Part shown: piece after piece, positions 15,463 through 47,715 of the stretch | Position numbering within the stretch: position 1 is the first letter of the stretch | Layout: every line of letters starts with the position of its first letter | Assembly (NCBI GenBank): GCA_963717935.1 | Contig: CAVQXP010000004.1 | Span: 192,001-256,000 of the forward strand | DNA length: 64,000 nucleotides | Direction of reading: 5' to 3' | Source: Candidatus Eiseniibacteriota bacterium | GTDB taxonomy: Bacteria > Eisenbacteria > RBG-16-71-46 | Notes under the pieces: generated by a model | The model's database searches: none | The model's input: only the letters and a program-made list of their open reading frames with translations | What the model was told of the DNA's origin: nothing | Made by a program: the position numbers and the translations under genes

Positions 15463-15715
15463 CGCTTCGTCTCCCATCGAACGCTCGCCGGCGGGCCGCC
15501 ACGGCCCGCCCGGCCACCGCGACATGATAGCCGAACGGCGCCGCGTCTGCCGCGGGACGGCGGGCGCGGAGCCCGGCAGGAGGGTCCCGCGGGCACGCTC
15601 GGCTCCGCTTCCCGCTGCGCCTCGCTCTTCCTCGCCGGGCTCCGCCGGTCCCTGGCTCCACCCGGCTCCGGGCGGCCTCGCGGGATCCTCCTGCCGGGCC
15701 CCGCGCCCGCGGGCC

Positions 15716-22453: not shown

Positions 22454-22513
22454 AGGCTTGCCTTCTCCGGTTTCAAGGGGTCCGCCGTCGGTTCCCTGCG
22501 ATATCACGATGGG

Positions 22514-25561: not shown

Positions 25562-25563
25562 GC

Positions 25564-30995: not shown

Positions 30996-30998
30996 CGG

Positions 30999-32204
30999 TC
31001 AACCCTCCAGTGACTCGGCCAGCAGTTCGACCACGTCCCGGACCACCAGCTGTTTGTCGTGGCCGAGCGTCTTCACGGCGTCTTCGAAACGGAACAGTTC
31101 CAGCGGACACGAGACGGCCAGCACCTCCGCGCCGGCGGCGACGGCCTCCTTCACCCGCCGCTCGGACAGCCGGTCCATCTCCTTCGACTTGTAGTAGGTG
31201 TCCAACCACATCCCTCCACCGCCACCCCCGCAGCACAGCGAGTTGGCCCGGTTGTGGACCATCTCGACCAGCGTCACGCCGGGGATGGCGCCGAGCAGCT
31301 CGCGCGGCTCGTCGTAGCAACCCATGCCCCGCCCGAGACAGCAATTGTCGTGGTAGGCGACCTTCCGCTCGAGCTTCCCCGTGAGCCGGGGCTTCAGCTG
31401 CTCGAGACGCTGCGCCAGGAACAGCGTCGTGTGTTCGACCTGCCAGCCCATCTCGGCAAGCGGATAGCGGCTGCGGAAGGCGTTGAAGGCATGCGGATCA
31501 CCGGTGACGATGCGGTTGAACTTGTGCTTCTTCAGGGTCTTGACGTTGGCCTCGGCCAGCGTCTCGAACAGGCCGGGCTCCCAGGTCAGACGTCCGCACT
31601 CGCCGGCGCACTTCTCCTCGTGACCGAGGATGGCGAAGTCCACGCCCAGCGCGTGGAACAGCTTCGCCGTGGCGCGGCTGTTCGCCTGGCCCCGGGGATA
31701 GAACGAGGTGTAGCACTCCACGAACCAGAGCACGTCCACCGGGCCCGGCTTCTCCGCCAGACTGCGCACCGGCACGCCCGCGGTGGCCGCCCAGGCGGCC
31801 CGCTTGCGCGGCGACTCCCCCATCGGGTTGCCGTACCGCGCCATGTTCTCGAGCGACTTCTGCAGCTCGCCCGGCATCTCCTTCAGGTTCGCCAGCGTCT
31901 GCTCCTTGACCAGCGGCAGCAGGACTTCCGTGAGCCGGATGTCGCGCGGGCACTTGCTCATGCACGCAAAGCACGATACGCAGCGCAGCAGGCTGCCGGA
32001 GGCGATGACCTCGTCGAGCAGGCCCCGCCAGAGCATGTTGATGACCGCGCGCGGGGGGTACTCCATGTACTCCCCGTACGGGCACGCTCCGGCGCACGTC
32101 CCGCACTGCAGACAGGTCATGATCTGGCGACCCTCGGGCGTGGCCAGCAGGGTCTCCAGTGTGGTGTCGGTCGGACAGGTGACAGTGCGTTCAACGAGAG
32201 CCAT
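30999..32204 (-). CDS. HdrD/GlpC-like Fe-S oxidoreductase (2x[4Fe-4S] + CCG domains)
   Basis: CLQCGTCAGACP, CVSCFACMSKCP, YHDNCCLGR, LCCGGGGG, VSCP. Confidence 0.88.
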   Translation of the reverse strand: MALVERTVTCPTDTTLETLLATPEGRQIMTCLQCGTCAGACPYGEYMEYPPRAVINMLWRGLLDEVIASGSLLRCVSCFACMSKCPRDIRLTEVLLPLVKEQTLANLKEMPGELQKSLENMARYGNPMGESPRKRAAWAATAGVPVRSLAEKPGPVDVLWFVECYTSFYPRGQANSRATAKLFHALGVDFAILGHEEKCAGECGRLTWEPGLFETLAEANVKTLKKHKFNRIVTGDPHAFNAFRSRYPLAEMGWQVEHTTLFLAQRLEQLKPRLTGKLERKVAYHDNCCLGRGMGCYDEPRELLGAIPGVTLVEMVHNRANSLCCGGGGGGMWLDTYYKSKEMDRLSERRVKEAVAAGAEVLAVSCPLELFRFEDAVKTLGHDKQLVVRDVVELLAESLEG

Positions 32205-32217
32205 GGGTCGTCCCTTC

Positions 32218-34256
<2,039 letters not shown>

Positions 34257-34260
<4 letters not shown>

Positions 34261-35243
34261 GCGCCGGCCTTCCGGGCCTCGATGGCGGCCTTCAGGGGCT
34301 CGACCAGATCGAAGAGGTCCATGACCGCACCGTACTTGGCGACATCGAAGATCGGAGCGCTGGGGTCGGTGTTGATGGCGATGATCATCGGCGAGTCCTT
34401 CATGCCCTCCTGGTGTTCCGGAGCGCCGCTGATCCCCAGTGCGAGGTAGAGCCTGGGCTTGACGGTCATGCCGGACTTGCCGACCTGACGGGTCAGCGGA
34501 AGCCAGCCCTGGTCGATGACCGGGCGCGAGCCGCAGACCGCGCCACCCAGCAGCGCGGCGAGCTCTTCGCCCAGGGCGATGTTGTCCTGGGTCTGGATGC
34601 CGCGGCCGAGGGCCACGAGGATGTTCTGCTTCGTGATGTCGACGTCGCCGGCCGGGGGCGCGATGAACGCCTTGAACGTCACCGGCGAGGCCTCCAGCGG
34701 AACCTCCACGTTCCGTACGGGCGGCGTCTTCTCGCTTCGGCCCGCGTCCGCGGGGAAGGAACCCGGATTGACGCCGATGATGCCGCGTCCCGCCGGGAGA
34801 CGGACATCCGTGAGGATCTTCCCGCCGAACAGCTGGCTGGTGACGAGCACGTCGGGCCCGTCCGCCTTCGCGTCCTTGCAGTAACTGACGAAGGGGAGGT
34901 CCATCCGCGCCGAGAGGATCGAGCCGACCCCCATGGTGACGTTCGTCCCGCCGAGCAGGACCAATCCGACCGACTCCTTCTCCATCAGGCTCTTGAGCAG
35001 GGCCCCGAGCGTGGCGGCCGCCGGCATCTCGAGCGCGGGAGCGGACACGACCAGGACCTCGTCGGCCAGGCCCAGGCCGGATGCAAGGGAAGCGACGTCG
35101 CTGCCGACCAGCGCCACGCGAAGGGGCACGCCCCGCGCGTCCGCCAGTCTCCGGCCCGCACCGAGCATCTCGAACGTGATATCCGCGACCTCGCCCCTGA
35201 GGTGCTCCGCCAGGATGAGGATTCCGTCTGCCATGGTCGTCAC
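34257..35243 (-). CDS. etfA: Electron transfer flavoprotein alpha subunit
   Basis: GSRPVIDQGW..QVGKSGMTVKPRLYLALGISGAPEH..INTDPSAPIF. Confidence 0.95.
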
Positions 35244-35248
35244 CCCCC

Positions 35249-36019
35249 TCAGATCAGGCTCTGGTTCGCGAGCAGGTCCACGAGACGGCTCGCCACCTCT
35301 TCCGGCGAACCCTCCAGCATCTCCGCGCGTCCGGCGCTCTCCGGCTTGAACATCTTCTCGATCGGGAAGCGGGCGGGTCGATCCGGCGTCACGTCCACGG
35401 TCTCCAGGGTGGAGGACTTCATGGCCGCGCGCACCTTCGCGATGGGCACGTACCGCGGCGGCTTCTCGGCCGCCTGGATCCCCAGCACCGCCGCCATCGG
35501 AAGGCTGAACTCCCCGCGCAGGCCGCCGGCGAATTCCTTCGTCACCACGAGCCCGCCGTCGCCGGGTGCGACCACCACCACCACACCCACGTACGGCAGC
35601 CCCAGCAGGTCCGCGAGGAAGGGACCGATCTCACCCTCGATGTCGTCGATCGCCTGGCTGCGCAACAGGATCAGGGCGTCCCCCCCGACCGCGCCGGCCG
35701 ACTTGAGGAAGTCGGCGAACAACTTCGCCGCCGAGAGACTGCGCACCTCGCCCAGATCTCCGGTGAGCTTGACGGCACGATCCGCGCCCTTGGCCAGCGC
35801 CTGGAACAGCGCCTCTTCCACCTCGGGGGCGTCGAGGGCCACGACGGTCACCGTGCCCCCGTGCCTCTCCTTCAGCAGCAGGGCCTGCTCGAGGGCATGT
35901 TCGTCGGAGTCGCTGAGCTTGAATCTCAGCCACTCCGCGTCCAGCGACTTGTTGTCCGCGGCGACGGCCAGCTCTTCGACCGTATCGGGAACCGTCTTCA
36001 GCAGGACGAACAGGTTCAT
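35249..36019 (-). CDS. etfB: Electron transfer flavoprotein beta subunit
   Basis: LLKTVPDT, DEHALEQAL, ALAKGADRA, QAIDD, PRY. Confidence 0.93.
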   Translation of the reverse strand: MNLFVLLKTVPDTVEELAVAADNKSLDAEWLRFKLSDSDEHALEQALLLKERHGGTVTVVALDAPEVEEALFQALAKGADRAVKLTGDLGEVRSLSAAKLFADFLKSAGAVGGDALILLRSQAIDDIEGEIGPFLADLLGLPYVGVVVVVAPGDGGLVVTKEFAGGLRGEFSLPMAAVLGIQAAEKPPRYVPIAKVRAAMKSSTLETVDVTPDRPARFPIEKMFKPESAGRAEMLEGSPEEVASRLVDLLANQSLI

Positions 36020-36324: not shown

Positions 36325-36852
36325 ACACCGCTGGGGAACTGGAGGGCCATCGCCCGCCTCCATCACGCGTCCGGAGCGGCGTTCTTCGGGGTTCGCCCGG
36401 CGTTCGCGTCCCTGTCCGGCCACCACCCCCTGCCCCACCGGCTTTCCCCCGTCGGGCACCCGGCGCGGCGCTCTGCGCGACTCCTGGAACCAGATGGGTC
36501 CGCCTAACCTCATGTCGTTCATCCGATTCCTCGAATCAACGAGGCTCGGTGGATTCGGCCGGCCGCCTCCAGGTCCCCGTCGGGGGCCCCGGCCTTCATG
36601 CGCGATCGTGCCAGAAACCACCGTTCTCCCGGGAAGAACAGGGATGTCCCCCGGCATGACGCCCCTGACAGACCTGACAGCCAGACCGACCGTGGCCGCG
36701 GGCTCTCGAGCCTGCGTGGGACCCCGATTCGTGGAGCAGCCTCGCGCGTCTCCCGGTGATCGATGTCCGCGCGAGACCGCGACCTCGCGTGAGCGAGGAG
36801 GAGCGCGCGGAATCGCTCGGCGTGGCTACAACGCTCCGGGCATGCGCTCACG

Positions 36853-36882
36853 TTGACGTCGCGACGCACGGAAACAGATACT
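36853..36882 (+). promoter_or_regulatory. Candidate sigma70 promoter of transketolase
   Basis: TTGACG-18 nt-GATACT. Confidence 0.4.
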
Positions 36883-36941
36883 CCGATGAGCTGAGACGAT
36901 GGGCGCCGTCGCGACGACGGCACCACCACCAGGGGGGACTC

Positions 36942-39314
36942 ATGGCATTCCAATTCGGGCCGCGCCGGGGCCGCTACGTCGAGGTCGCCGCCGCGACGCG
37001 CGACCAGGCACCGGCACTCCCGCCGCAGGAGCTGGAGCACTTCGAGGCCTTCGACCTCATCTACCGCTCGCTCTGCGCGGTGCTCTACAACTACGTCCCC
37101 CTGTCGGGGCACCCTGGCGGCTCCATCTCGTCGGGCCGCTTCGTGGCCGGCCTGCTCTTCGACGCGATGGACTACGACGTCAGCAGCCCGGACCGTGACG
37201 ACGCCGACCTGATCTCGTACGCGGCCGGGCACAAGGCTCTCGGCCTGTACGCCATGTGGGCGCTGCGAAACGAGTTACTGCGAGCCGGCGCACCCGACCT
37301 GCTGCCGCGCGACGAGAGACACCAGTTGCGGCTCGAGGACCTGCTCGGCTTCCGTCGCAATCCCTCCAGCCGCACTCCCCTGTTCCTGAAGTTCAAGGCC
37401 AAGCCGCTCGACGGCCATCCGACGCCGGGCACGCCCTTCCTCCGGCTCTCGACCGGCGCCTCGGGCGTGGGCGTGTCGGCCTCGCTGGGCCTGGCGTTCG
37501 GCGCTCGCGACTACTACGGCGCGGGCGCCCCGCGCGTGCACATCGTCGAGGGCGAGGGCGGCATGACGCCCGGCCGCGTCGTGGAGGCCCTGGCCGGCGC
37601 CGGCACCGCCTCGCTCGACAACGCCGTGCTCCACGTGGACTGGAACCAGGCCTCGATCGACTCGAACCAGGTCTGCCGCGACGGCGAGAAGCCCGGCGAC
37701 TACGTGCAGTGGACGCCGGCGGAGCTGGCCTACCTGCACGACTGGAACGTCGTGTTCGTGCCCGACGGCAAGGACTTCCAGCAGGTGCTCGCCGCCCAGC
37801 GCCTGGCGGTCACGATGGGCAACTCGCAGCCCACGGCCATCGTCTACCGCACCGTCAAGGGCTGGCAGTACGGCGTCGAGGGCCGCGGCTCGCATGGCGC
37901 CGGCCACGCGCTCTGCTCGGACGGCTTCTACCAGGCGGTGCAGCCGCTGCTCGGCGACGCGAAGCAGGCCCTGCCCTGCTGCCAGGGCCTCGACGCGCGG
38001 CGCTGCGCGGGACCAGGCGGCCCGGCGGTCGTGGAGGCCTGCTTCTGGGACGCGCTGCAGGTCATCCGCAAGGCCGTCGAGACGAGGCCCGCGATGGTGC
38101 AGCACCTCGCCGGCCGGCTGCGCGCCGCACGCGAGCGGCTCGACGCCCGGGCGCGCAAGCCCCGCGCGGGCGCGCCCCGCGTCGAGGCCGTGTACGAGAG
38201 CATCGCGCAGGACGGCGGCGCGATCCCCGCGCCCCTGCGGCTCGCCCCCGGCACCGTGACCACGCTGCGCAACGAGCTGGGCCGCACGCTCCACCACCTC
38301 AACCAGGCCAGCGGCGGCGCGTTGTTCGTGGCTTCGGCCGACCTGCTGGGCTCGACCAGCGTGAACAAGGTCACCGAGGGCTTCCCCGCCGGCTTCTGGA
38401 ACACCACGACCAATCCCGGGTCGCGCACGCTCGCGATCGGCGGCATCTGCGAGGACGGCATGAGCGGCGTCGTCTCGGGCCTCGGCAACTTCGGCCGGCA
38501 CATCGGCGTGGCCTCCTCCTACGCGGCCTTCCTCGCCCCGCTCGCCCACGTCTCCGCCCGCCTGCACGCCATCGGCAACCAGGCGCGCCGCGGCGTGGAC
38601 GGCGGGCCGTACCGGCCGCTCATCCTGATCTGCGCGCACGCCGGGTTGAAGACCGGTGAGGACGGCCCGACCCACGCCGACCCGCAGGCGCTCCAGTTGC
38701 TGCAGGAGAACTTCCCGCCCGGGACCGCCATGACGCTCACGCCCTGGGACCCCGCGGAACTGTGGCCGCTGGTCTCCGCCGCGCTCGCGCGACGGCCGGC
38801 CGTGCTCGCGCCGTTCGTCACGCGACCCAGCGAGACCGTGCCCGACCGCGCGAAGCTGGGCCTCGCTCCCGTCGAGGCGGCCCGCACCGGCGTCTACCGG
38901 CTGCGCGCGCCGAGGGCGAAGGCCGACGGCACGCTGGTGCTCCAGGAGAGCGCGGTCACGCTGGCCTTCGTCGCCGACGTGCTGCCCCGCCTCGAGCAGG
39001 AAGGCGTGGACCTGGACATCTACTACGTGGCGAGCGCCGAGCTGTTCGACGCGCTGCCGGCCGCGGAGCGCGAGCGCATCTTCCCCGAGGCGGGCGCCCG
39101 GGAGGCCATGGGCATCACCGGCTTCACCTTCGCCACGATGTACCGCTGGGTGAGGTCCGACCGCGGGCGGGCGGCCACGCTGCATCCCTACCTCAAGGGC
39201 CACTACCCGGGCAGCGGCCAGGGAGCGGCCGTCCTGCACGAGGCGGGGCTGGACGCGGAGGCGCAGCATGCGGCCATCCGCGGCTACCTCGACGTGAAGG
39301 CGAGGAGCCGGTAG
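36942..39314 (+). CDS. Transketolase-family ThDP enzyme (divergent)
   Basis: SGHPGGS, AGHK, LDGHPT, STGASGVG, SADLLGST, HAGLKTGEDGPTH. Confidence 0.85.
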   Translation: MAFQFGPRRGRYVEVAAATRDQAPALPPQELEHFEAFDLIYRSLCAVLYNYVPLSGHPGGSISSGRFVAGLLFDAMDYDVSSPDRDDADLISYAAGHKALGLYAMWALRNELLRAGAPDLLPRDERHQLRLEDLLGFRRNPSSRTPLFLKFKAKPLDGHPTPGTPFLRLSTGASGVGVSASLGLAFGARDYYGAGAPRVHIVEGEGGMTPGRVVEALAGAGTASLDNAVLHVDWNQASIDSNQVCRDGEKPGDYVQWTPAELAYLHDWNVVFVPDGKDFQQVLAAQRLAVTMGNSQPTAIVYRTVKGWQYGVEGRGSHGAGHALCSDGFYQAVQPLLGDAKQALPCCQGLDARRCAGPGGPAVVEACFWDALQVIRKAVETRPAMVQHLAGRLRAARERLDARARKPRAGAPRVEAVYESIAQDGGAIPAPLRLAPGTVTTLRNELGRTLHHLNQASGGALFVASADLLGSTSVNKVTEGFPAGFWNTTTNPGSRTLAIGGICEDGMSGVVSGLGNFGRHIGVASSYAAFLAPLAHVSARLHAIGNQARRGVDGGPYRPLILICAHAGLKTGEDGPTHADPQALQLLQENFPPGTAMTLTPWDPAELWPLVSAALARRPAVLAPFVTRPSETVPDRAKLGLAPVEAARTGVYRLRAPRAKADGTLVLQESAVTLAFVADVLPRLEQEGVDLDIYYVASAELFDALPAAERERIFPEAGAREAMGITGFTFATMYRWVRSDRGRAATLHPYLKGHYPGSGQGAAVLHEAGLDAEAQHAAIRGYLDVKARSR

Positions 39315-40093: not shown

Positions 40094-40597
40094 TCAGCGC
40101 GCCGGGCGCCCCAGCAGCAGCCGGCGCGCGTACGGGATCAGGCCGCCCGCGTCGATGATCGCCTGCCGCGCCTGCGGCAGGGGCTCGATCGCGAACGACT
40201 TGCCCGAGGTCCGGTTCCAGACCTTGCCGTCCTTGATCTCGAGCTCGTCGCCCTCCTCCGCCTCGATCGTCGGGCAGATCACCATGGCGAGCCCGACGTT
40301 GATCGAGTTCTGCAGGAAGATGCGCGCGAAGTGCCGCGCGATGACGGTGACCTCGTAGCCCTTGATGCACGAGGCGGCCTGCTCGCGGGAGGAGCCGCAG
40401 CCGAAGTTGCCCCCCGCCACGATGAACGAGCCGGGCGGGATCTCCTTCGCCTTCAGCCTCCGGTTGAACTCCGCGTCGTCCACGAAGGCGAACTGCGGCG
40501 TCTCCGTCGGCAGCACCGTCGCCATGAACCGGCCCGGGTAGATGATGTCGGTCGAGACGTCGTCGCCGAGCTTGCGCACGACCTTGCCGGTGGCCAT
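40094..40597 (-). CDS. Isopropylmalate/homoaconitate hydratase small subunit (LeuD/HacB-like)
   Basis: GDDVSTDIIYPGR, GGNFGCGSSREQA, FARIFLQNSINVG, AGGL. Confidence 0.92.
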   Translation of the reverse strand: MATGKVVRKLGDDVSTDIIYPGRFMATVLPTETPQFAFVDDAEFNRRLKAKEIPPGSFIVAGGNFGCGSSREQAASCIKGYEVTVIARHFARIFLQNSINVGLAMVICPTIEAEEGDELEIKDGKVWNRTSGKSFAIEPLPQARQAIIDAGGLIPYARRLLLGRPAR

Positions 40598-40598
40598 C

Positions 40599-41888
40599 TC
40601 AGTCCACTCCTCTCGGGTCGGAGATCACGCCGGTGATCGCGCTGGCCGCCGCAACCGCGGTCGAGCACAGGTAGACCTCGGCGTTCGGGTTGCCCATCCG
40701 CCCCTTGAAGTTGCGGTTGGTGGTGGCGAGCGCCGTCTCGCCGTCGGCCAGCGCGCCCTGGTGCACGCCCAGGCACGGGCCGCAGCCGGGATTGCACACC
40801 ACCGCGCCGGCCGCGACGATGTCGCGCAGGTAGCCCAGGCGCAGCGCCTCGGAGTAGATGCGCCACGAGGCCGGGAACACCAGCATGCGGGTGCTGTCCG
40901 CCACGCGCTTGCCCTTGAGGATCTTCGCCGCCACCTCGAGGTCGTCGAGCCGGCCGTTGGTGCACGAGCCGACCACGATCTGCTGCACCTTCTTCCCCTT
41001 CACCTCGCCGATCGGCTTGACGTTGTCCACCGTGTGCGGGCAGGCGATCTGCGGCCCCAGCGTCGTCACGTCGATCTCGATCACCTGGTCGTAGACCGCG
41101 TCCGCGTCCGGCCCGAACAGGTCGAGCGCGTCCTTCACGCCGGCCTCGTCGCGCAGGTAGCGCTCGGTCTCGGCGTCGGGCGGCACCACGCCGGCCGTGG
41201 CGCCGGCCTCCACGGTCATGTTGCAGAGCACCAGCCGGCCCGAGGTCGGCATGGTCCTGATCGCCTCGCCGTGGAACTCGATGACCTTGTAGTTCGCGCC
41301 CTCGGCCGTGAGCTTCCCGACCAGGTGGAGGATCAGGTCCTTCGGGTACACCCCTCGGGGAAGCGGCCCGTTCACCACGACCTTGATGGTGCCGGGCACT
41401 TCCACGTTGAGGATGCTGCCCAGCGCCCACACCGCGGCCATCTCGGTGGCGCCGATGCCGAAGGCGAAGGCCCCGAGCGCGCCGTGCGTCGTGGTGTGGC
41501 TGTCGGTGCCCACCAGCACGAAGCCCGGCCGCACGTAGCCGTTCTCGGGCAGGATCTGGTGGCAGATGCCGCCCACGTCGCCGCGGATGTCGTGGAACTT
41601 GGTGATGCCCTGCTTCGCGATGAAGTCGCGGATCTTCTTCTGGTTGGTCGCCGTCTTCGACGACTCCGCCGGCACGCGGTGGTCGAAGATGATGGCGATG
41701 CGCGACGGATCCCAGACCTTCGGCTCCCGGCCGGTGCCCTGGAAGATCTCGTTGAACTGGTTGATGACGAGCGCGCCGTTCTCGTGCGACATCGCCAGGT
41801 GGACCGGCGGCTCGAGGACGTCGCCCACCGCCACCGCGGGCTTGCCGCAGGCGCGGGCCAGCAGTTTCTGCACGTAGGTCATGCCCAT
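40599..41888 (-). CDS. Isopropylmalate/homoaconitate hydratase large subunit (LeuC/HacA-like)
   Basis: IFDHRVP, GICHQ, GTDSHTTTHGA, GSCTNGR, PGCGPCLG, TTNRNFKGRMG; GAAGGAGG-like RBS before ATG 41888. Confidence 0.93.
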   Translation of the reverse strand: MGMTYVQKLLARACGKPAVAVGDVLEPPVHLAMSHENGALVINQFNEIFQGTGREPKVWDPSRIAIIFDHRVPAESSKTATNQKKIRDFIAKQGITKFHDIRGDVGGICHQILPENGYVRPGFVLVGTDSHTTTHGALGAFAFGIGATEMAAVWALGSILNVEVPGTIKVVVNGPLPRGVYPKDLILHLVGKLTAEGANYKVIEFHGEAIRTMPTSGRLVLCNMTVEAGATAGVVPPDAETERYLRDEAGVKDALDLFGPDADAVYDQVIEIDVTTLGPQIACPHTVDNVKPIGEVKGKKVQQIVVGSCTNGRLDDLEVAAKILKGKRVADSTRMLVFPASWRIYSEALRLGYLRDIVAAGAVVCNPGCGPCLGVHQGALADGETALATTNRNFKGRMGNPNAEVYLCSTAVAAASAITGVISDPRGVD

Positions 41889-41917
41889 CGTGATCCCTTC
41901 CTCCTTCAGCGGCCGTG

Positions 41918-43118
41918 TCAGACGATGCCCTTCGACTTGAGCGCTGCCAGCTCCTCCGGCGTCACGCCGACGCCCGCCAGCACCTCCGCGGTGTGCGCGG
42001 ACAGGCGCGGCGGCGGCGCCGTGATGTCGCCCGGGGTCTTCTCGAACTTCGCGGTCAGCCCGAAGAGCGGCAGCGTGCCGAGCCCCTCCGCGGGCACCTG
42101 CTTGAGCGTGCCGCGGTGCCGGATCTGCGGCTGCTGGAGCGCGTCCTCCAGGCTCAGGATCTCCCCGCTCGGGACGTCCTTCGCGTTGAGCAGGTCCACC
42201 CACTCCTTCGTGGGGCGCTCGGCGAGCTTCACCTCGAGCAGCGGCGTCAGCACCTTGCGGTTCTGCTTGCGGATGTCGCGCTTCTGGAAACGCTCGTCGG
42301 TCTTGAGCTCCGGCACGCCGAGCACGTCGCAGACCGACTCCCACTGCTCCTGCTTGTTCGCGGCGATGTTGATGAAGCCGTCCTTCGTCCGGAACATGCC
42401 GGACGGCGCCGCGGTGAAGTTGTCGTTGCCCATGAGCACCGGCTGCTGCTTGCCGATCAGCAGGTTCGCCGCGACCCAGCCCATGAGCGGCATGATGGAA
42501 TCGAGCATCGCGACGTCGATGAACTGCCCCTCGCCCGACCGCTCGCGGTGGTAGAGGGCCGCCATGACGGCGAAGGCCGCGTTGAGCCCGCCCACCGTGT
42601 CGCACACCGGGAAGCCGGCGCGCAGCGGGTTCAGGCGCTCGTCGCCGTTGACGGCCATCTCGCCGCTCAGGCCCTGGATGATCTGGTCGTAGGCCGGCTT
42701 GAACGCGTCCGGCCCGGTCTGCCCGAAGCCCGAGATGGCGCAGTAGACCAGCCGCGGGTTGATCTGCCTTGAGGACGTCGTAGCCGAGCCCGAGCCGACC
42801 CATGACGTCCGGGCGGAAGTTCTCGACCAGCACGTCCGCGTCCTTCACCAGCCGCTTGAAGATCTCCTTGCCCTCGGGAGACTTGGTGTTGAGCGTCACC
42901 GACTTCTTGTTGGCGTTCTGGGCGAGGAAGCTGGTGCCCATCAACTGCTCGTTCAGCGCGGGCACGATGCCGAGCTTGCGGGCCAGGTCGCCGTCCTTCG
43001 GGTTCTCGATCTTGATGACCTCGGCGCCGAGCAGCGCCAGGTGCAGCGTGCAGAACGGCCCCGCCAGCACGTTCGTCAGGTCGAGGACCCGCACTCCGGA
43101 AAGGATGGACCTGCTCAT
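41918..43118 (-). CDS. Class III (CaiB/BaiF) CoA transferase (frameshift near 42765)
   Basis: LSGVRVLDLTNVLAGPFCT..LGAEVIKIE, NANKKSVTLN, DVLVENFRP, ISGFGQTGP..AYD. Confidence 0.92.
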
Positions 43119-44029
43119 GAAGGCTCCTTCGTCGCGATGGGCCCCGTCCGGTGGACGTAGCCCTGCATGTCACGTCCGAAATGCGCCGCCACGTCGCGCG
43201 CGACCGCGATCAGACGCTCGAGGTCCACGTCAGGGCGGAGGCCCTGCCGGTGCAGGACGTGGACGAGATCCTCGGTGGCCACGTTGCCGGCCGCCACCTT
43301 CGTGAAGGGGCAGCCGCCCGAGACCCGCGAAGGAGGTCTCGAACGACGTCACGCCCGCGCGCCGGGCCGCGAAGATGTTGGCCATGCCGAGACCGTAGGT
43401 GTTGTGGAAATGGCAGGTGCACTCGACCGCCGGGATCGAGGCCGAGCACCGACGCCGAACAGCCGCTCGACCTGCGCCGGGTCGGCGTGCCCGGCCGTGT
43501 CGGCCAGGCTGATGCTCCCGAGCCCCGCCTCGAGGTAGGCGCGCACCATGCCGAGCACGCGCTCCTCGGGAACCGGCCCTTCGAAGCCGCAGCCGAAGGC
43601 CGACTGCACCGAGACCTGCACCTTCTTCCCCGCCGCCACGGCCTGCTTCGCCGCGCCGATGATGCGCTGCGTGGCCTCTTCGGTCCCCATGCCGGTGTTC
43701 TTCCGGCTGTGGGTCTCGCTCGCCGAGGCGCCCAGGCAGAACATCTCGACCCCGCACTTCAGTCCGCGCTCGAGCCCCTTCTCGTTCAGCACCAGGCCCG
43801 AGAGCACCGTGGCGGAGGTCTTGCCCGCCGTCAGCCGCCGGAACAGCTCGTCGGTGTCGGCCATCTGCGGGACCTTCTCCGGGTGGACGAACGAGCCCAC
43901 CTGGACGATGTCCACGCCGGCGTCCATGACCCGGCGGATCCAGCCCTCCTTCGTCTCGAGCGGGACGACCTGCTTCTCCATCTGCAGCCCGTCCCGCGGG
44001 CCGACTTCGTGGATGACGATGCGCGTCAT
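43115..44029 (-). CDS. HMG-CoA lyase-like DRE-TIM metallolyase (frameshifts near 43445 and 43320)
   Basis: EVGPRDGLQ, GSFVHPEKVPQMADT, SAFGCGFEG, SLADTAG, HFHNTYG, GCPF, GNVATED. Confidence 0.9.
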
Positions 44030-44045
44030 GATCTCCCCGGCCGCG

Positions 44046-45167
44046 CTAGAGCTTCGCGGCGATGGCCTCGGCCATCTCCAGCGTCTTCGCCGCACCGCCC
44101 ATGTCGTAGGTGCGCACCTTGCCCTCGCGCACGACCTCGGCGACCGCCTTCTCGACGCGCGCTCCCGCGTCGGTCTGGCCCAGCCAGTCGAGCATCATCT
44201 TGGCCGCGAGGATCGTGGCGATCGGGTTCACCTTGTACTGCCCCGCGTACTTGGGCGCCGAGCCGTGCGTGGGCTCGAACACCGCGAGCTTCTCGCCGAT
44301 GTTGCCCGAGCAGCCGAACCCCAGCCCGCCCACCATCTGCGCGCACAGGTCCGAGATGATGTCGCCGTAGAGGTTCGGCGCCACCAGCACGTCGTAGTTG
44401 AACGGGTTCTTGAGCAGCCACATCGTCATGGCGTCGATGTTGGCGTCGTCCATGGCGATCCCCGGGTAGTCCTTCGCCACCTGCTTCGCCATCTCGAGGA
44501 ACAGCCCGTCGGTGGCGCGCACCACGTTCGCCTTGTGCACCACCGTGACCTTCTTGCGCCCGAACTTCTTCGCGAACTCGAACGCCGCGCGGACGATGCG
44601 CTCCGAGCCCTTCTTCGTGTTGATCTTGCAGGAGATCGCGTACTGGTCGCCCGGCAGGTCCTTGAACGCCTTGAAGGGCGGCGACAGCTCGGTGAGCGTG
44701 TCGCGCAGCTTGTCCGGCACCGTGTTGAACTCGACGCCCGAGTAGAGGTCCTCGGTGTTCTCGCGGAACACGACGAGGTCGATCCCCTCCTTGAAATTGA
44801 GCGGGTTCTGCGCGTAGGCCTTGCACGGCCGCAGGCAGACGTAAAGATCGAAGAGCTGCCGCATGCGCACGATGGGCGAGCGGTAGACCAGGCCCTTGCC
44901 CTGCAGCGCCGGCACCAGCTCCTTCTCCGCCGCCTTCACGGGCTTCGAGGTGATGGCGCCGAACATCGCGGCGTCGACGCTCTTCAGCAGGTCGACCGTG
45001 CGCGCCGGGAAGGCGTCGCCCTCCCTGCACCAGAACTCCCAGCCGATGTCGCCGTGGATGTATTCGGCGTCGAGGCCGACCCTGTCGAGCACGAGCTTCG
45101 CCGCTTCCATCACTTCGATGCCGACGCCGTCACCGGGCAACCATGCGATCTTGAACTTCTTCGCCAC
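44046..45167 (-). CDS. Beta-decarboxylating dehydrogenase (isocitrate/isopropylmalate/homoisocitrate family)
   Basis: PGDGVGIEV, RENTEDLY, VHKANV, NLYGDIISD, FEPTHGSAP, RTYDMGG; GTG start with GGAGG RBS. Confidence 0.93.
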   Translation of the reverse strand: MAKKFKIAWLPGDGVGIEVMEAAKLVLDRVGLDAEYIHGDIGWEFWCREGDAFPARTVDLLKSVDAAMFGAITSKPVKAAEKELVPALQGKGLVYRSPIVRMRQLFDLYVCLRPCKAYAQNPLNFKEGIDLVVFRENTEDLYSGVEFNTVPDKLRDTLTELSPPFKAFKDLPGDQYAISCKINTKKGSERIVRAAFEFAKKFGRKKVTVVHKANVVRATDGLFLEMAKQVAKDYPGIAMDDANIDAMTMWLLKNPFNYDVLVAPNLYGDIISDLCAQMVGGLGFGCSGNIGEKLAVFEPTHGSAPKYAGQYKVNPIATILAAKMMLDWLGQTDAGARVEKAVAEVVREGKVRTYDMGGAAKTLEMAEAIAAKL

Positions 45168-45485
45168 GGAGCAACCTCCTCGTTGGGCTCTGCGCTGCGG
45201 GTCCGGACACATCCACGGGTGCTGCCAGGCGAGCGGAGCCGTCGCGACCCGCTCGAACTTGAGTGCGGGGGACTCTAAGGCCTCGGACGACCGATGGACA
45301 ATGCGAGGAGGGGGCCGCGGGCGCCGAAATTCATTCGGCCGGAGCGAACGCGCCGGCACGGCGCTCGAGGCGGGAGCCGCAAGGGAGGCAAGGGGCTACA
45401 GGAGCGGAAGGCCGCGTGGAGATGCCACGGGGGCCGCCCGGTCAGGCGGACAGGACGGCCCCTGCTGTCGGTCACGGGGAGTGCG

Positions 45486-45740
45486 TCACTCCTCGACCCG
45501 TTCGACGACGACCGTCAGCTTGCTGACCACGGCGGCGATCGCGCCCACCGCGATCAACGCCGGCGCGAGAACCGCACCCACCACACCGACACTGAGCGGA
45601 ATCTCGATGAGCACCCTGCCCTCGGCATTCTTGAGGGTGATCCGTCGGATGTTGCCCTCGTGAACCAGGGCCTTGACCTTGGCCAGAAGCTCCTCGCCGC
45701 TGACGTGGAACTCCTCCGTGCGAGCCGTCTTGTCCGCCAT
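45486..45740 (-). CDS. DUF4342 domain protein
   Basis: KVKALVHEGNIRRITLK..LIEIPLSVGVVG. Confidence 0.8.
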   Translation of the reverse strand: MADKTARTEEFHVSGEELLAKVKALVHEGNIRRITLKNAEGRVLIEIPLSVGVVGAVLAPALIAVGAIAAVVSKLTVVVERVEE

Positions 45741-45821
45741 TCTTGAGATCCTCCGCCTGTGTTCGCCGCGACGCGCGAGGCCGGCCGCCGACCGTGGATG
45801 CCCCCTGCTTGTCCCCTTCCC

Positions 45822-46190
45822 TTACGCCTTCACGTTGAAGAACAGCTCTCGCGACCGGTGCCGTCCATCGATGCTTGCCCGGCCCGTGGCGACCAGGACA
45901 TAGAGCATGTTCAGCGCGGCCAGGTGCGAGGGCACCTGGCGCCGGCTCTTGGAACGTGTGAAGACGACCTTTGCCGTGAGTCCCTGCTGACCTCGAAGCC
46001 GGCGGTAGAGCTTGTCCACGGCGGCCCTGCCGACGAGGTTGAAGTTGCCCGCGCTCCGCTTGCTGATGGAGACCGACATGACGAAGTACTGCCGCGCGCT
46101 GGACAGGACATAGTAATGCTGGCGCTTGCCTTCCACTTCTCCGTGGAATTCCAACCCCGTGGTCAGGCTCTTGACGCTTAGCCTCATCAC
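45822..46190 (-). CDS. Hypothetical basic protein
   Basis: GGAGG RBS, protein-like composition; no recognised motif. Confidence 0.55.
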   Translation of the reverse strand: MMRLSVKSLTTGLEFHGEVEGKRQHYYVLSSARQYFVMSVSISKRSAGNFNLVGRAAVDKLYRRLRGQQGLTAKVVFTRSKSRRQVPSHLAALNMLYVLVATGRASIDGRHRSRELFFNVKA

Positions 46191-46378
46191 TCGCCCTCCG
46201 CTCGATCACCGACTCCAGTCCACAGGACGCGAAGGCGATCCGGGGGGCGGAGCCGGTTGCCCGTCCTCATCCCCGGCCCCACCCGTGGAAGCCCGCCGCA
46301 CTCGGAGAATCCTACTTCGTCCGACGCGGGGCTTGCACGCAAAGACCGCGGCACGGCCCCTGTCAGCCTCCTGCGGCG

Positions 46379-46720
46379 CTAGCGGTAGCCCCGCTCCCCC
46401 GGCCGGCCGAGCTTCTCGAGCCACAACTGCTCGAGCATCCGCAGGTCCGCGGCCGGGTCGTGGCCCGGCTCCTCCGGCGGCTTGAGCGTGTCCAGCGTCT
46501 CGAACTCGAAGGCCTCCGGGCCGGACTCGTTCCAGTCCTGCTGGAGCGCCCGGTCCGGATGCCCGCCGGCCCCGAGCTGGAAGCGCTGCCGGTTGAGCAT
46601 CCCCGGCACGTCCACGCTCGAACCGATCAGCGACTTCCCGTTCACCGTGTTCCGCACCCGGAACACGCCCATCTGCCGCGGGGATTCCTTGTAGGCGCGG
46701 ATCTGCGCTTTGCGGTCCAT
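46379..46720 (-). CDS. GIY-YIG nuclease-like small protein
   Basis: GVFRVRNTVNGKSLIGSS..NRQRFQL..LQQDWNESGPEAFEFETL. Confidence 0.8.
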   Translation of the reverse strand: MDRKAQIRAYKESPRQMGVFRVRNTVNGKSLIGSSVDVPGMLNRQRFQLGAGGHPDRALQQDWNESGPEAFEFETLDTLKPPEEPGHDPAADLRMLEQLWLEKLGRPGERGYR

Positions 46721-46961
46721 GGCGGGCGCTCCTATGGGACTCCGACGCTCGAGCGAGGGGTCAGGCCCCGCCGAACGTCTGAAGTGAACGGACAACTGGC
46801 GGCAAGCCGGCTGCGGCCGCTCGGTGAGAGGCTCAGCCTAGGGCTACACCCAGGAGGCCCTCGTGGACCGCGCGGTCGGCGGTCGAGTAGCGGCAGAAGA
46901 CTACCACCTCAACGACGGGGAACTCCCACACCGACGAGCGGCCCTGAGAATGGGGCGGCGG

Positions 46962-47666
46962 TCAGTCCTTCACGCAGCGGACGCAGAAGCCGCTGGCCTT
47001 GTGGCCCGCGTTCCTGCTGACTCCAGCGTTGCCGTGGTCGAGGCCGACGTGCCAGGCGTAGGCAGTGTCCTCTTCCGTCGCGGACCACCACGTGCCGTGG
47101 CTGCCCCGGTCACCGAACCACCCCGCCCGGGCACGGCCACCACCGGGAAGGCCACCGAAGCCGCTGCGATTCGTCGCGCCCCGGTTGGGACGACTCCAGT
47201 GGCTCGCGAGCGTGTCCTTCAGCTTGCCGCCGGCCACCCGCGGGCCGCCCATGCGCTTCACCAACGCCGCCCATTCCGCATCGGAAGGGACGTGCCAGCC
47301 TGCCGGGCACAGGCCGCGCGCGTCGGTGACCGCGTGGAAGTTGTACAGGGCGCCATACATGGCCCGGTATCCCGCACGGTCGTTCTCGTACCAGCAGTAC
47401 GCACCGGTCGTCGCATCGCGCCACTTCGCGTCGTCGGTCGTCAGCGACAACGGGCTGCCATCGCGGTAGCGGGTGACTCTCAGGTCCTGGGCCATCCAGA
47501 CCTGGGCCCCGATCCTGACCGCGCGATAGAGATTTCCGTCGCGGTCCCTCACGGGCTCCTGCGCCGGTGCGGCGCAGGCTGGCAGGCGAGCGTCCACGCC
47601 GGGCAGGCAGCAGAGCGCAAGGCAAACGATGCTCGCTCCCGCGATGCGAGAACGCTTCCAGGTCAT
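46962..47666 (-). CDS. FISUMP (Fibrobacter succinogenes major paralogous) domain protein
   Basis: DRDGNLYRAVRIGAQVWMAQDL, YGALYN, LCPAGWHVPSDAEW, GFCVRCVKD. Confidence 0.88.
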   Translation of the reverse strand: MTWKRSRIAGASIVCLALCCLPGVDARLPACAAPAQEPVRDRDGNLYRAVRIGAQVWMAQDLRVTRYRDGSPLSLTTDDAKWRDATTGAYCWYENDRAGYRAMYGALYNFHAVTDARGLCPAGWHVPSDAEWAALVKRMGGPRVAGGKLKDTLASHWSRPNRGATNRSGFGGLPGGGRARAGWFGDRGSHGTWWSATEEDTAYAWHVGLDHGNAGVSRNAGHKASGFCVRCVKD

Positions 47667-47715
47667 GGCACCTCGTCCTCTCCGCCGCAGCGCGGTCGTC
47701 CGCCACCAGCGCGGG

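What the first reader, a model, noticed from the sequence alone, without database searches (positions are those of the whole stretch)
40094..45167. Synthase-less 2-oxoacid elongation operon: HICDH-like dehydrogenase + HMG-CoA-lyase-like + class III CoA transferase + aconitase-type pair
Seen: five tightly packed co-oriented genes (gaps of 1-29 nt and one ATGA overlap). Established: Leu, citramalate and alpha-aminoadipate pathways use a synthase (LeuA/CimA/homocitrate synthase), a LeuCD-type hydratase and a LeuB-type dehydrogenase. Here the synthase slot holds an HMGL-type lyase (EVGPRDGLQ, HFHNTYG, GCPF, GNVATED) plus a CaiB/BaiF transferase, the pairing used for citramalyl-CoA-type cleavage. 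The dehydrogenase segment GAITSKP...YRSPIVRMRQ resembles, from memory, the SPIVALR signature of fungal homoisocitrate dehydrogenases rather than LeuB or IDH. Inference: a CoA-conserving, possibly reversible route acetyl-CoA + 2-oxoglutarate <-> homocitryl-CoA <-> homocitrate <-> homoisocitrate <-> 2-oxoadipate + CO2, or the citrate/citramalate analogue. Run backwards it would be a carboxylating catabolic route for 2-oxoadipate. I know of no description of this operon, but could not search.
Basis: partly seen in the sequence, partly recalled or inferred. Interest (0 to 1): 0.85.

Follow-up and report, generated by a model that had tools for sequence, protein, structure and literature searches.

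The report
Synthase-free homocitrate-type five-gene operon
Five neighbouring genes in an uncultured sediment bacterium, conserved in about a dozen phyla, probably interconvert 2-oxoadipate plus CO2 and 2-oxoglutarate plus acetyl-CoA, using a CoA-transferase and a lyase where textbook pathways use a synthase, and no paper I could search describes this.

Summary
In this assembly four single-base insertions break the lyase and transferase. These match the assembly's general indel noise (1.9 per kb against a short-read relative), so the genes are probably intact. The same gene order occurs in 55 of 80 loci from about a dozen phyla, with invariant substrate-loop motifs.

Best reading (about 0.5): a reversible module linking 2-oxoadipate + CO2 + NADPH, homoisocitrate, homocitrate, homocitryl-CoA, and 2-oxoglutarate + acetyl-CoA, probably run catabolically. 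Support:
- Lysine-catabolic genes flank 11 of 80 cassette loci in three phyla.
- Two other operon types pair the same dehydrogenase clade with an equivalog-grade homoaconitase and a citrate-lyase-like or citryl-CoA-synthetase/lyase-like module; one also carries L-lysine 6-transaminase and P6C dehydrogenase.

Against: among 41 Eisenbacteria genomes the cassette does not co-occur with P6C dehydrogenase, and the hydratase scores slightly closer to isopropylmalate/citramalate isomerase. Citrate and citramalate/isopropylmalate readings stay open. The fungal "SPIVALR" basis was not verified. This scan noted the cassette earlier on seven other genomes. Eight literature searches found no description.

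The parts
44046..45167 (-). beta-decarboxylating dehydrogenase (373 aa, GTG start), isocitrate/homoisocitrate side of the Iso_dh family, predicted NADP(H)-dependent
   Evidence: PF00180 at 303 bits. Best NCBIfam AksF2 homoisocitrate DH at 344 bits, below its cut-off of 540. Best solved structure Thermus HICDH at 250 bits. Substrate loop YRSPIVRMRQ is invariant in all cassette loci covering it. K-Y in HGSAPKYAG at the NADP-discriminating position.
43115..44029 (-). HMG-CoA-lyase-like (DRE-TIM) acyl-CoA lyase, about 303 aa; frame broken in this assembly by single-base insertions at 43452, 43427 and 43320
   Evidence: PF00682 on two pieces, and NF004283 HMG-CoA lyase subfamily on three pieces at 162.5, 35.6 and 45 bits. 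The intact G005 ortholog scores 204 bits to B. subtilis HMG-CoA lyase 1ydo. Insertions located; absent from 4 of 4 runs' contigs.
41918..43118 (-). class III (CaiB/BaiF) CoA-transferase, about 399 aa, start overlaps the lyase stop (ATGA); frame broken by a single-base insertion at 42765
   Evidence: PF02515 at 139.5 and 259.2 bits on the two pieces. The intact G005 ortholog's best solved homolog is succinate--hydroxymethylglutarate CoA-transferase at 271.6 bits. Insertion located; absent from other contigs.
40599..41888 (-). large subunit of a LeuC/HacA-type (archaeal-type) aconitase-family hydratase, 429 aa
   Evidence: NF001614 539.7 > 385; TIGR02086 505.9 > 410; hacA_fam 496.5 > 385.7; HacA_Meth 472.8 < 550; LEU2 428.7 < 611. 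Solved structures: M. jannaschii IPM/citramalate isomerase 384.5 bits, homoaconitase 369 bits.
40094..40597 (-). small subunit of the LeuD/HacB-type hydratase, 167 aa, substrate-recognition loop F-M-A-T
   Evidence: TIGR02087 118.3 > 108.95. Solved structures: MJ1277-type IPM/citramalate isomerase small subunit 112 bits, homoaconitase small subunit 95 bits, with loops YLVY / YLRT / YNLT against FMAT here. YPGR[FY]MATVLP is invariant across cassette loci; one locus has H at the F/Y position.

Best explanation
The operon encodes a self-contained, synthase-free alkylmalate module whose substrate is most likely the homocitrate series.

Inferred steps:
1. The dehydrogenase interconverts 2-oxoadipate + CO2 + NADPH and homoisocitrate.
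2. The LeuCD-type hydratase interconverts homoisocitrate and homocitrate via cis-homoaconitate.
3. The class III CoA-transferase moves CoA from a donor (succinyl-CoA or acetyl-CoA, unknown) onto homocitrate.
4. The HMG-CoA-lyase-like enzyme cleaves homocitryl-CoA to acetyl-CoA + 2-oxoglutarate.

No thioester is hydrolysed, so every step is reversible. The likely physiological direction is catabolic: it disposes of 2-oxoadipate from lysine/aminoadipate breakdown in a peptide-degrading anaerobe.

Shown: gene content, order, conservation, family membership, invariant loop motifs, and the neighbourhoods. Inferred: substrate, direction and CoA donor.
For: 1. The cassette occurs in the same order in 55 of 80 loci from about a dozen phyla at 61-94% protein identity, and most of the rest are cut by contig ends. 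LeuD and dehydrogenase substrate loops are invariant, so there is one specificity.

2. Lysine-catabolic genes lie in the flanks of 11 of 80 cassette loci in three phyla. In Elusimicrobia, L058 has an LKR-like gene, a saccharopine-dehydrogenase-family gene and a P6C dehydrogenase at 785 bits > 730 directly after the cassette; L045 and L055 have the LKR-like and Sacchrp_dh genes; L042 and L044 have a class-III aminotransferase. In Chloroflexota, L084 and L107 have Sacchrp_dh and L115 has an aminotransferase. In Acidobacteriota, L086, L104 and L114 have LAT-like genes at 48-52% identity.

3. Sister operons share the dehydrogenase clade (53-60% identity, SPIV loop core, K-Y cofactor motif). Variant 2 is fused homoaconitase (TIGR00139 769 > 530) - dehydrogenase - CitD/E-like (276 < 443) - CitF-like (484 < 501), in an Eisenbacteria genome with no HMGL-like gene; it is complete in 26 of 80 metagenome loci. 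Variant 3 (L212) is SucC-like + SucD/citryl-CoA-lyase fusion (257 > 245) - homoaconitase (743 > 530) - dehydrogenase - PrpD-like, next to P6C dehydrogenase (779 > 730) and L-lysine 6-transaminase (590 > 521).

4. The dehydrogenase clade profile scores NAD-IDH 274 and Thermus HICDH 262, against IPMDH <= 204. The loop carries two extra arginines. The predicted NADP(H) dependence suits reductive carboxylation.

5. G000 encodes L-lysine 6-transaminase (649 > 521) among peptidase genes. It has its own citrate synthase, aconitase and ICDH. IlvD was found in 0 of 5 genomes and no acetolactate synthase reached its cut-off, so a housekeeping TCA or leucine role is unlikely.
Against: 1. Among 41 Eisenbacteria genomes, a true P6C dehydrogenase is in 14, and only 2 of these (G006, G033) are among the 12 with cassette genes. 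G000's best is a generic ALDH at 391 bits.
2. LAT is above cut-off in 8 of 12 cassette-bearing and 11 of 28 cassette-free genomes, so it is not specific. Sacchrp_dh shows no correlation.
3. G000 has no LKR-like gene, and the other saccharopine-route homologs are only 29-37% identical.
4. 69 of 80 cassette loci show no lysine gene in the flanks.
5. LeuC and LeuD score slightly better against the methanogen IPM/citramalate isomerase than against homoaconitase (384.5 vs 369 bits; 112 vs 95 bits). The LeuD loop lacks the homoaconitase arginine. This is weakened because the Arg-less Pyrococcus subunit complements Thermus homoaconitase (passage in PMC7308503).
6. The cassette hydratase is only 35% and 30% identical to the fused homoaconitase of the sister operons, so that inference rests on the dehydrogenase clade alone.
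7. No equivalog cut-off for any homoisocitrate dehydrogenase or homoaconitase is reached by the window's proteins.
8. There are no enzyme data and no expression data.
Confidence: 0.5

Rival explanations
1. Citrate version. The module links 2-oxoglutarate + CO2 <-> isocitrate <-> citrate <-> citryl-CoA <-> oxaloacetate + acetyl-CoA. This would be an ATP-free citrate cleavage or formation route, for example for glutamate fermentation or a reductive TCA branch.
For: The dehydrogenase's loop and its ~30-residue insertion are most like prokaryotic NADP-isocitrate dehydrogenases: YRSPIVRMRQ against IRSLNVALRQ, with B. subtilis ICDH best at 75.8 bits. It has the NADP-type K-Y motif. The transferase's best solved homolog acts on hydroxymethylglutarate and the lyase is HMG-CoA-lyase-like; citrate is the 3-carboxy analogue of HMG (established chemistry). 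The sister operons use citrate-lyase-like and citryl-CoA-synthetase/lyase-like modules.
Against: The position of the isocitrate gamma-carboxylate ligand Asn115 is Ile in every member. The role of Asn115 is recalled, not checked in a paper. The hydratases are HacAB/IPMI-type or homoaconitase-equivalog, not aconitases. CitE-like and CitF-like proteins fall below citrate-lyase cut-offs. G000 already has citrate synthase, aconitase and ICDH. The neighbours are lysine genes, not glutamate genes.
Confidence: 0.15
2. Alkyl version. The module handles (R)-citramalate/3-methylmalate (pyruvate + acetyl-CoA <-> 2-oxobutyrate) or 2-/3-isopropylmalate (2-oxoisovalerate + acetyl-CoA <-> 2-oxoisocaproate). 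It would serve either as a thioester-saving route to isoleucine/leucine precursors or as a reverse route for leucine or 2-oxobutyrate breakdown. In this genus it could double as the only LeuB/LeuCD.
For: LeuC and LeuD score best against the methanogen isopropylmalate/citramalate isomerase, and the LeuD loop has no arginine. An HMGL-family lyase paired with a class III CoA-transferase is the pairing of Chloroflexus (R)-citramalyl-CoA lyase and succinyl-CoA:(R)-citramalate CoA-transferase (recalled, not tested). G000 and the closed same-genus genome G004 have no other LeuB- or LeuCD-like genes, while cassette-free relatives have an equivalog-grade LeuB next to the LeuA-like synthase.
Against: The dehydrogenase clade profile scores IPMDHs <= 204 bits against 262-274 for HICDH/NAD-IDH, and LeuB equivalogs are not reached (204 < 353; 278 < 393). 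The substrate loop is arginine-rich, not hydrophobic. IlvD was found in 0 of 5 genomes and acetolactate synthase reaches its cut-off in none, so the lineage seems not to make 2-oxoisovalerate by the standard route. Neighbours and sister operons point to lysine and homoaconitase.
Confidence: 0.15
3. The lyase and transferase are decaying pseudogenes in this organism, and only the dehydrogenase and hydratase still work.
For: As assembled, four single-base insertions break the two genes, while the dehydrogenase, LeuC and LeuD read through.
Against: The non-triplet indel rate in the cassette (10 in 5.26 kb) equals that over 33.7 kb of other G000-G005 alignments (1.87 per kb), and in-frame indels are far rarer (9). 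The aconitase and citrate synthase are also broken. The single-contig same-genus genome G004 is broken at other places in the same cassette. Outside the breaks the pieces are 92-98% identical to G005.
Confidence: 0.05

Closest known systems
Upper alpha-aminoadipate pathway (homocitrate synthase, homoaconitase, homoisocitrate dehydrogenase) of Thermus and fungi, and the methanogen 2-oxoacid elongation enzymes AksA/D/E/F
   Same: An aconitase-family hydratase plus an Iso_dh-family beta-decarboxylating dehydrogenase acting on an alkylmalate series. The best NCBIfam model for the dehydrogenase is AksF2, and the best solved structure is Thermus HICDH. LeuC passes the hacA_fam subfamily cut-off.
   Different: There is no synthase in the operon; a CoA-transferase and an acyl-CoA lyase take its place, so no thioester is hydrolysed and the route is reversible. 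No equivalog cut-off is reached. The dehydrogenase carries an ICDH-type insertion and an NADP-type motif, where Thermus HICDH has the NAD-type D-I. The likely direction is catabolic.
Chloroflexus aurantiacus succinyl-CoA:(R)-citramalate CoA-transferase with (R)-citramalyl-CoA lyase (recalled from memory; sequences not available here)
   Same: A class III CoA-transferase next to an HMGL-family lyase that cleaves a 3-hydroxy-3-substituted acyl-CoA to acetyl-CoA plus a 2-oxoacid.
   Different: That pair is not joined to a LeuCD-type hydratase and an Iso_dh dehydrogenase. The substrate here is probably a tricarboxylate. Similarity to the Chloroflexus proteins could not be tested.
Citrate cleavage systems: citrate lyase CitDEF, and citryl-CoA synthetase + citryl-CoA lyase (the latter recalled for Hydrogenobacter)
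   Same: The same logic of activating a hydroxy-tricarboxylate as a thioester and then cleaving it to acetyl-thioester plus a 2-oxoacid. Sister operons of the same dehydrogenase clade use CitDEF-like and SucCD/citryl-CoA-lyase-like modules.
   Different: The window's module is built from unrelated families (HMGL-like, CaiB-like). The sister CitE/CitF fall below citrate-lyase cut-offs and sit with an equivalog-grade homoaconitase.
Succinate--hydroxymethylglutarate CoA-transferase (SUGCT) with HMG-CoA lyase
   Same: These are the best solved homologs of the transferase (271.6 bits) and of the lyase (204.5 bits). Catalytic motifs of the lyase (RDGLQ, HFH, GGCPF) are kept.
   Different: HMG is not a malate derivative and cannot be a LeuCD/Iso_dh substrate (established chemistry). 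The conserved operon partners imply a 2-alkylmalate-type acid.

Membership tests
Isocitrate/isopropylmalate dehydrogenase superfamily (PF00180) | Full-length match above the Pfam gathering score | tested here: met
   302.9 bits against 27, profile positions 1-348 of 348.
Homoisocitrate dehydrogenase (AksF / AksF2 / iso_homocit_dh equivalogs) | Score above the curated equivalog cut-off | tested here: not met
   AksF2 344 < 540; AksF 304.6 < 500; iso_homocit_dh 200 < 680. These are the best-scoring models, but membership is not shown.
3-isopropylmalate dehydrogenase LeuB | Score above the curated equivalog cut-off | tested here: not met
   TIGR00169 204 < 353.2; PRK03437 278 < 393. By contrast, the LeuB of a cassette-free relative scores 453 > 393.
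Isocitrate dehydrogenase | Equivalog cut-off, and the Ser/Asn pair that binds the gamma-carboxylate (roles of Ser113/Asn115 recalled) | tested here: not met
   PRK08997 291.5 < 510; prok_nadp_idh 221.6 < 567. Ser is kept but the Asn115 position is Ile.
Homoaconitase / LeuCD-type hydratase (archaeal type) | Subfamily cut-offs for the large and small subunits; equivalog cut-offs for homoaconitase or IPM isomerase | tested here: inconclusive
   Subfamily cut-offs are met: TIGR02086 505.9 > 410, hacA_fam 496.5 > 385.7, TIGR02087 118.3 > 108.95. Equivalog cut-offs are not met: HacA_Meth 472.8 < 550, LEU2 428.7 < 610.7, HacB2 116.8 < 230, leud 118.7 < 245.9.
HMG-CoA lyase subfamily (NF004283) of the HMGL-like / DRE-TIM family | Score above the subfamily cut-off; conserved catalytic motifs | tested here: inconclusive
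   Only the three frame-separated pieces of the window gene were scanned: 162.5, 35.6 and 45 bits against a whole-protein cut-off of 246. The intact G005 ortholog was not scanned with NCBIfam; it scores 204.5 bits to solved B. subtilis HMG-CoA lyase with RDGLQ, HFH and GGCPF aligned. The Pfam HMGL-like cut-off is met (65 and 34.2 against 29).
LeuA / CimA / homocitrate synthase (condensing synthases) | Equivalog or subfamily cut-off | tested here: not met
   The best synthase models score <= 32 bits on the lyase pieces against cut-offs of 413-600. No synthase lies in the operon.
CoA-transferase family III (PF02515) | Match above the gathering score over the whole profile | tested here: met
   Pieces cover profile positions 1-107 and 110-366 at 139.5 and 259.2 bits against 23.3. 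No equivalog is reached (SucGlutTfsCaiB 94 + 190 against 750).
(R)-citramalyl-CoA lyase / succinyl-CoA:(R)-citramalate CoA-transferase of Chloroflexus | Orthology to the characterised proteins | not testable with these tools
   No model or sequence of these proteins was available in the libraries I could query. The resemblance is recalled.

The most novel reading that the evidence does not exclude
A widespread, undescribed carboxylating catabolic pathway. Anaerobes of a dozen or more phyla would dispose of lysine-derived 2-oxoadipate by running the first half of the aminoadipate pathway backwards (NADPH-dependent reductive carboxylation to homoisocitrate, then isomerisation to homocitrate), and then cleaving homocitrate to 2-oxoglutarate + acetyl-CoA. 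Evolution would have solved the cleavage step at least three times with non-homologous modules: HMGL-type lyase + class III CoA-transferase (this window), a citrate-lyase-like ACP complex, and a citryl-CoA-synthetase/lyase-like pair. All three are built around one NADP-type dehydrogenase clade.
Probability: 0.4. Interest if true: 0.85.

Novelty: new variant of a known kind. Interest (0 to 1): 0.72.

Why it matters
If the reading holds, it adds a new route to lysine/aminoadipate catabolism that needs neither a 2-oxoadipate dehydrogenase complex nor glutaryl-CoA chemistry, fixes one CO2 transiently, and returns the 2-oxoglutarate consumed by the upstream transaminations. It would show that the "irreversible" synthase step of 2-oxoacid elongation can be replaced by a lyase plus a CoA-transferase, making the whole module reversible and thioester-conserving. 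That is of interest for anaerobic energy budgets and for pathway engineering towards adipate and 2-oxoadipate. It would also give a function to a five-gene cassette found in hundreds of uncultured genomes, which current annotation labels as leucine-biosynthesis and HMG-CoA-lyase genes.

Tried and rejected
1. Housekeeping leuB/leuCD. This was my first reading, because G000 and the closed genome G004 have no other LeuB/LeuCD. I set it aside because IlvD is not found in 0 of 5 genomes and acetolactate synthase reaches its cut-off in none, LeuB equivalogs are not reached, and the clade profile sides with IC/HIC dehydrogenases.
2. LysW-type aminoadipate lysine biosynthesis. LysX is not found: best 41 bits against 276 in 5 of 5 genomes. 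G005, G017 and G009 have a true LysA.
3. Pseudogene reading of the four frame breaks. Rejected on the background indel rate.
4. Public runs. The best holder has 0.39 of the sampled words, so no run is shown to hold this strain. The laid contigs are relatives at 88-99% likeness.
5. All-against-all clustering of flank ORFs. No neighbour cluster occurs in more than 5 of 80 loci, and naive ORF calls in GC-rich loci were often on the wrong strand.
6. Annotation of loci holding only lyase + transferase (L080, L089, L090, L108) and of L085 and L063. Uninformative.
7. Comparison of window 20.9-36.1 kb with G005. That genome has no close counterpart (66-74% identity), so the region gave no indel estimate.
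8. Promoter and terminator scans. 0 promoter-like sites; 4 terminator-like sites against 2.8 +/- 1.6 in shuffles, all on the other strand.
9. The fungal "SPIVALR" signature. Not verified.
10. A 61-residue query to the structure library was too short to rank structures.
11. One family scan failed because I had guessed two ORF references that contained stops; I re-sent it without them.

Full report
**What is there.** The window is about 70% G+C, so I chose coding frames by third-position G+C and by translation. On the minus strand lie five genes:
- an Iso_dh-family dehydrogenase, 45167->44046;
- an HMGL-like lyase, 44029->43115;
- a family III CoA-transferase, 43118->41918;
- a LeuC-type subunit, 41888->40599;
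- a LeuD-type subunit, 40597->40094.

A ferritin gene follows downstream and a HlyIII-family gene lies upstream. Nothing in the immediate flanks of this window bears on function.

**Frame breaks.** The lyase changes frame three times and the transferase once. Against the closest short-read relative (G005, 94% DNA identity over 5.26 kb) the window carries single extra bases at 43452, 43427, 43320 and 42765. Contigs of related populations in 4 of 4 public runs laid on the stretch lack these bases. No run holds more than 0.39 of the sampled words, so these are relatives and not the source strain.

Of the 10 relatives' loci with a dehydrogenase of 80% identity or more:
- 8 hold all five genes: 7 read them in single frames, and the single-contig genome G004 is broken at other positions;
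- one (G003) is cut before LeuC;
- one (G016) has the dehydrogenase and LeuCD without the lyase and transferase.

Over 33.7 kb of G000-G005 alignments at seven places there are 63 non-triplet indels (1.87 per kb) against 9 triplet ones, and the cassette's rate is the same. The genome's aconitase and citrate synthase are also broken. I conclude that the breaks are assembly noise.

**Genome census.** The lineage is Candidatus Eisenbacteria by the titles of related records. G000 (3.02 Mb, 5 contigs, 93% complete) has only two Iso_dh genes: this one and an E. coli-type ICDH. The ICDH sits in a cluster with a fused mitochondrial-type aconitase and a citrate synthase. The only other HMGL-like gene is a short LeuA/NifV-like synthase that reaches no equivalog cut-off (188 bits against 463). 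The closed same-genus genome G004 shows the same picture.

In five genomes (G000, G004, G005, G017, G009):
- IlvD is found in 0 of 5, with two models.
- Acetolactate synthase reaches its cut-off in 0 of 5.
- IlvC is present in 5 of 5.
- A true LysA is present in 3 of 5.
- LysX is found in none.

The operon is therefore neither the TCA set, nor an ordinary leucine set fed by the standard valine pathway, nor part of a LysW-type lysine pathway.

**Conservation.** The lyase is 66-100% identical in records titled Eisenbacteria, Elusimicrobia, Gemmatimonadota, Acidobacteriota classes, Myxococcota, Bacteroidota/Ignavibacteria/Chlorobiaceae, Fibrobacterota, Latescibacterota, Zixibacteria, Planctomycetia, Chloroflexota and Opitutaceae.

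All five genes in the same order are present in 55 of 80 loci. Most of the other 25 are cut by contig ends. The exceptions on long loci are:
- L080 and L108, with lyase + transferase only;
- L040 and L085, with no dehydrogenase within 8 kb;
- L063, with no transferase.

The LeuD loop YPGR[FY]MATVLP and the dehydrogenase loop YRSPIVRMRQ are invariant in every locus that covers them, apart from one locus with H at the F/Y position. One substrate specificity is therefore conserved.

**What the proteins say.**
- *Dehydrogenase.* The best NCBIfam model is AksF2 homoisocitrate dehydrogenase (344 bits, below 540) and the best solved structure is Thermus HICDH (250 bits). A profile of the clade scores NAD-IDH 274, Thermus HICDH 262, S. 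pombe HICDH 233, and IPMDH 204 or less. Its loop and a ~30-residue insertion align best with prokaryotic NADP-ICDH. The Arg-Ser and Arg-Gln of IRSLNVALRQ are kept, the Asn position is Ile, and an extra Arg appears. It has K-Y where E. coli ICDH has the NADP-discriminating K344/Y345 (passage in PMC3521221) and where Thermus HICDH has D-I.
- *Hydratase.* It passes the archaeal LeuC/HacA and LeuD subfamily cut-offs but no equivalog cut-off. It is slightly closer to the methanogen IPM/citramalate isomerase than to homoaconitase, and its specificity loop FMAT lacks the homoaconitase arginine. A passage in PMC7308503 states that this region sets the preference, and that the Pyrococcus subunit (loop YNLT) can replace the Thermus homoaconitase subunit. 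The missing arginine is therefore not decisive.
- *Lyase.* It keeps the HMG-CoA-lyase catalytic motifs.
- *Transferase.* Its best solved homolog is succinate--hydroxymethylglutarate CoA-transferase.

**Context in other phyla.** No flanking gene cluster recurs in more than 5 of 80 loci. Targeted scoring, however, finds lysine-catabolic genes in the flanks of 11 of 80 loci in three phyla (families):
- Elusimicrobia: L058 has an LKR-like AlaDH/PNT protein, a saccharopine-dehydrogenase-family protein and a P6C dehydrogenase (785 > 730) directly after LeuD. L045 and L055 have the first two. L042 and L044 have a class-III aminotransferase.
- Chloroflexota: L084 and L107 have Sacchrp_dh, and L115 has an aminotransferase.
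- Acidobacteriota: L086, L104 and L114 have LAT-like genes.

**Sister operons.**
- *Variant 2.* In G025, a same-order Eisenbacteria genome with no HMGL-like gene, the closest paralog of the dehydrogenase (53-57% identity, loop YFSPIVGMRQ) lies in the operon fused homoaconitase (TIGR00139 769 > 530) - dehydrogenase - CitD/CitE-like (276 < 443) - CitF-like (484 < 501) - MFS transporter. It is usually preceded by an MmgE/PrpD-family gene.
- *Variant 3.* Six loci pair the homoaconitase-like gene with the dehydrogenase; L207, L212 and L215 also show the SucCD-like module upstream. L212 holds SucC-like + SucD/citryl-CoA-lyase fusion (257 > 245), homoaconitase (743 > 530), dehydrogenase (loop YFSPIVGLRQ) and PrpD-like, and on the other strand P6C dehydrogenase (779 > 730) and L-lysine 6-transaminase (590 > 521).
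- The pairing of PrpD-like with homoaconitase recalls the two-enzyme isomerisation of homocitrate in fungi (title and abstract of PMC3556520, listing).
- The cassette's own hydratase is only 35% and 30% identical to the fused homoaconitase. Only the dehydrogenase clade links the three operon types.

**Evidence against the lysine link in this lineage.** Among the 41 Eisenbacteria genomes searched, 12 hold cassette genes (G000, G001, G003, G004, G005, G006 as fragments, G007, G010, G017, G033, G039, G040), and G016 has the dehydrogenase and LeuCD only.
- A true P6C dehydrogenase is present in 14 of 41, of which only G006 and G033 are cassette-bearing.
- LAT is above cut-off in 20 of 41: 8 of the 12 cassette-bearing, 11 of the 28 cassette-free, and G016.
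- A ~100-bit Sacchrp_dh protein is present in 29 of 41 without pattern.
- G000 itself has LAT (649 bits) among peptidase genes, but no LKR-like gene and only a generic ALDH.
- These tallies include the unpublished genome G026, which is one of the 14 with a P6C dehydrogenase. No other claim rests on it.

**Mechanism and rivals.** The general mechanism follows from the conserved gene set and established enzymology of the four families: a 2-alkylmalate-type acid is isomerised by the hydratase, oxidatively decarboxylated or reductively formed by the dehydrogenase, activated by CoA transfer, and cleaved or formed by an HMGL-type lyase. I hold this at about 0.85. The substrate series is inferred:
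- homocitrate / 2-oxoadipate, about 0.5;
- citrate / 2-oxoglutarate, about 0.15;
- citramalate or isopropylmalate, about 0.15;
- something else, the remainder.

The catabolic direction is inferred from the NADP-type cofactor motif, from the P6C dehydrogenase and LAT neighbours, and from the citrate-lyase-like sister module. It is not shown.

**Novelty.** Eight full-text searches found no paper describing the cassette, homocitryl-CoA, a homocitrate lyase or a reverse aminoadipate route. The terms were: homocitryl-CoA; citramalyl-CoA lyase + isopropylmalate isomerase + CoA transferase; 2-oxoadipate / homoisocitrate / lysine degradation / homocitrate; homocitrate lyase; homoaconitase small subunit + isopropylmalate isomerase + substrate specificity; lysine catabolism / homoaconitase / citryl-CoA; 2-oxoadipate / reductive carboxylation / homoisocitrate dehydrogenase; aminoadipate / homocitrate / CoA-transferase / HMG-CoA lyase. 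Subscription journals are not covered.

Earlier notes of this scan describe the same cassette on seven other genomes, with readings split between 2-oxoadipate and citramalate. They are unchecked AI notes. Here I re-derived the conservation and the Elusimicrobia lysine neighbours independently. I also added the assembly-noise test, the genome census, the two sister operon types, and the negative co-occurrence result.

Noticed in passing
L031 (G025:C10:241500-251500), minus strand 9848->2229; also L136-L189: Sister operon: fused homoaconitase (equivalog grade) - SPIV-type dehydrogenase - CitD/CitE-like fusion - CitF-like - MFS transporter, usually preceded by an MmgE/PrpD-family gene and a DinB-like gene. 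It is complete in 26 of 80 metagenome loci. It looks like a citrate-lyase-style homocitrate cleavage operon, and I found no description of it.
   Followed up: partly
L212 (17.9 kb metagenome contig), 3968-15967; also L207, L209, L215: Third operon type: SucC-like + SucD/citryl-CoA-lyase fusion, HD-domain protein, homoaconitase, SPIV-type dehydrogenase and PrpD-like, next to P6C dehydrogenase and L-lysine 6-transaminase (both above equivalog cut-offs) and acyl-CoA dehydrogenases.
   Followed up: partly
window 20924-36019, minus strand: A cluster of NiFe-hydrogenase large subunit, a small-subunit-like Oxidored_q6 protein, FlpD/MvhD, an HdrA-like flavoprotein, two CCG-domain HdrBC-like proteins and ETF alpha/beta. 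G005 has no close counterpart (66-74% identity), so it is accessory within the genus. ORFs 25564-27930, 27561-28700 and 28529-29020 overlap, which may again be assembly frame breaks.
   Followed up: no
G000:C4:1532769-1537652 (outside the window): A fused mitochondrial-type aconitase, an E. coli-type NADP-ICDH and a citrate synthase form one cluster. Aconitase and citrate synthase each show a frame break in this assembly.
   Followed up: partly
Genomes G000, G004, G005, G017, G009: IlvD was found in 0 of 5 genomes with two models, and no acetolactate synthase reaches its cut-off, while IlvC is present in 5 of 5. These Eisenbacteria seem unable to make valine or leucine by the standard route.
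   Followed up: partly
L117 (G009:C43) 268-6665; L119 (G020:C1) 3066-7916; L116 (G000:C2) 6587-8482: In cassette-free relatives a thiolase, a short LeuA/NifV-like synthase, a small ORF and an equivalog-grade LeuB lie together. Genus g1 (including G000) keeps the synthase but has no such LeuB. The role of this synthase is unexplained.
   Followed up: partly
window 45350-47714: About 2.3 kb upstream of the dehydrogenase has no counterpart in G005, apart from a 73-nt island at 46380-46452. Its ORFs 45472-46209 and 46379-46795 have no Pfam match.
   Followed up: no
window 36756-39314, plus strand: An 852-aa thiamine-diphosphate enzyme with weak Transketolase_N and Transket_pyr matches, possibly an E1 component of a 2-oxoacid dehydrogenase. 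It converges on the operon.
   Followed up: no
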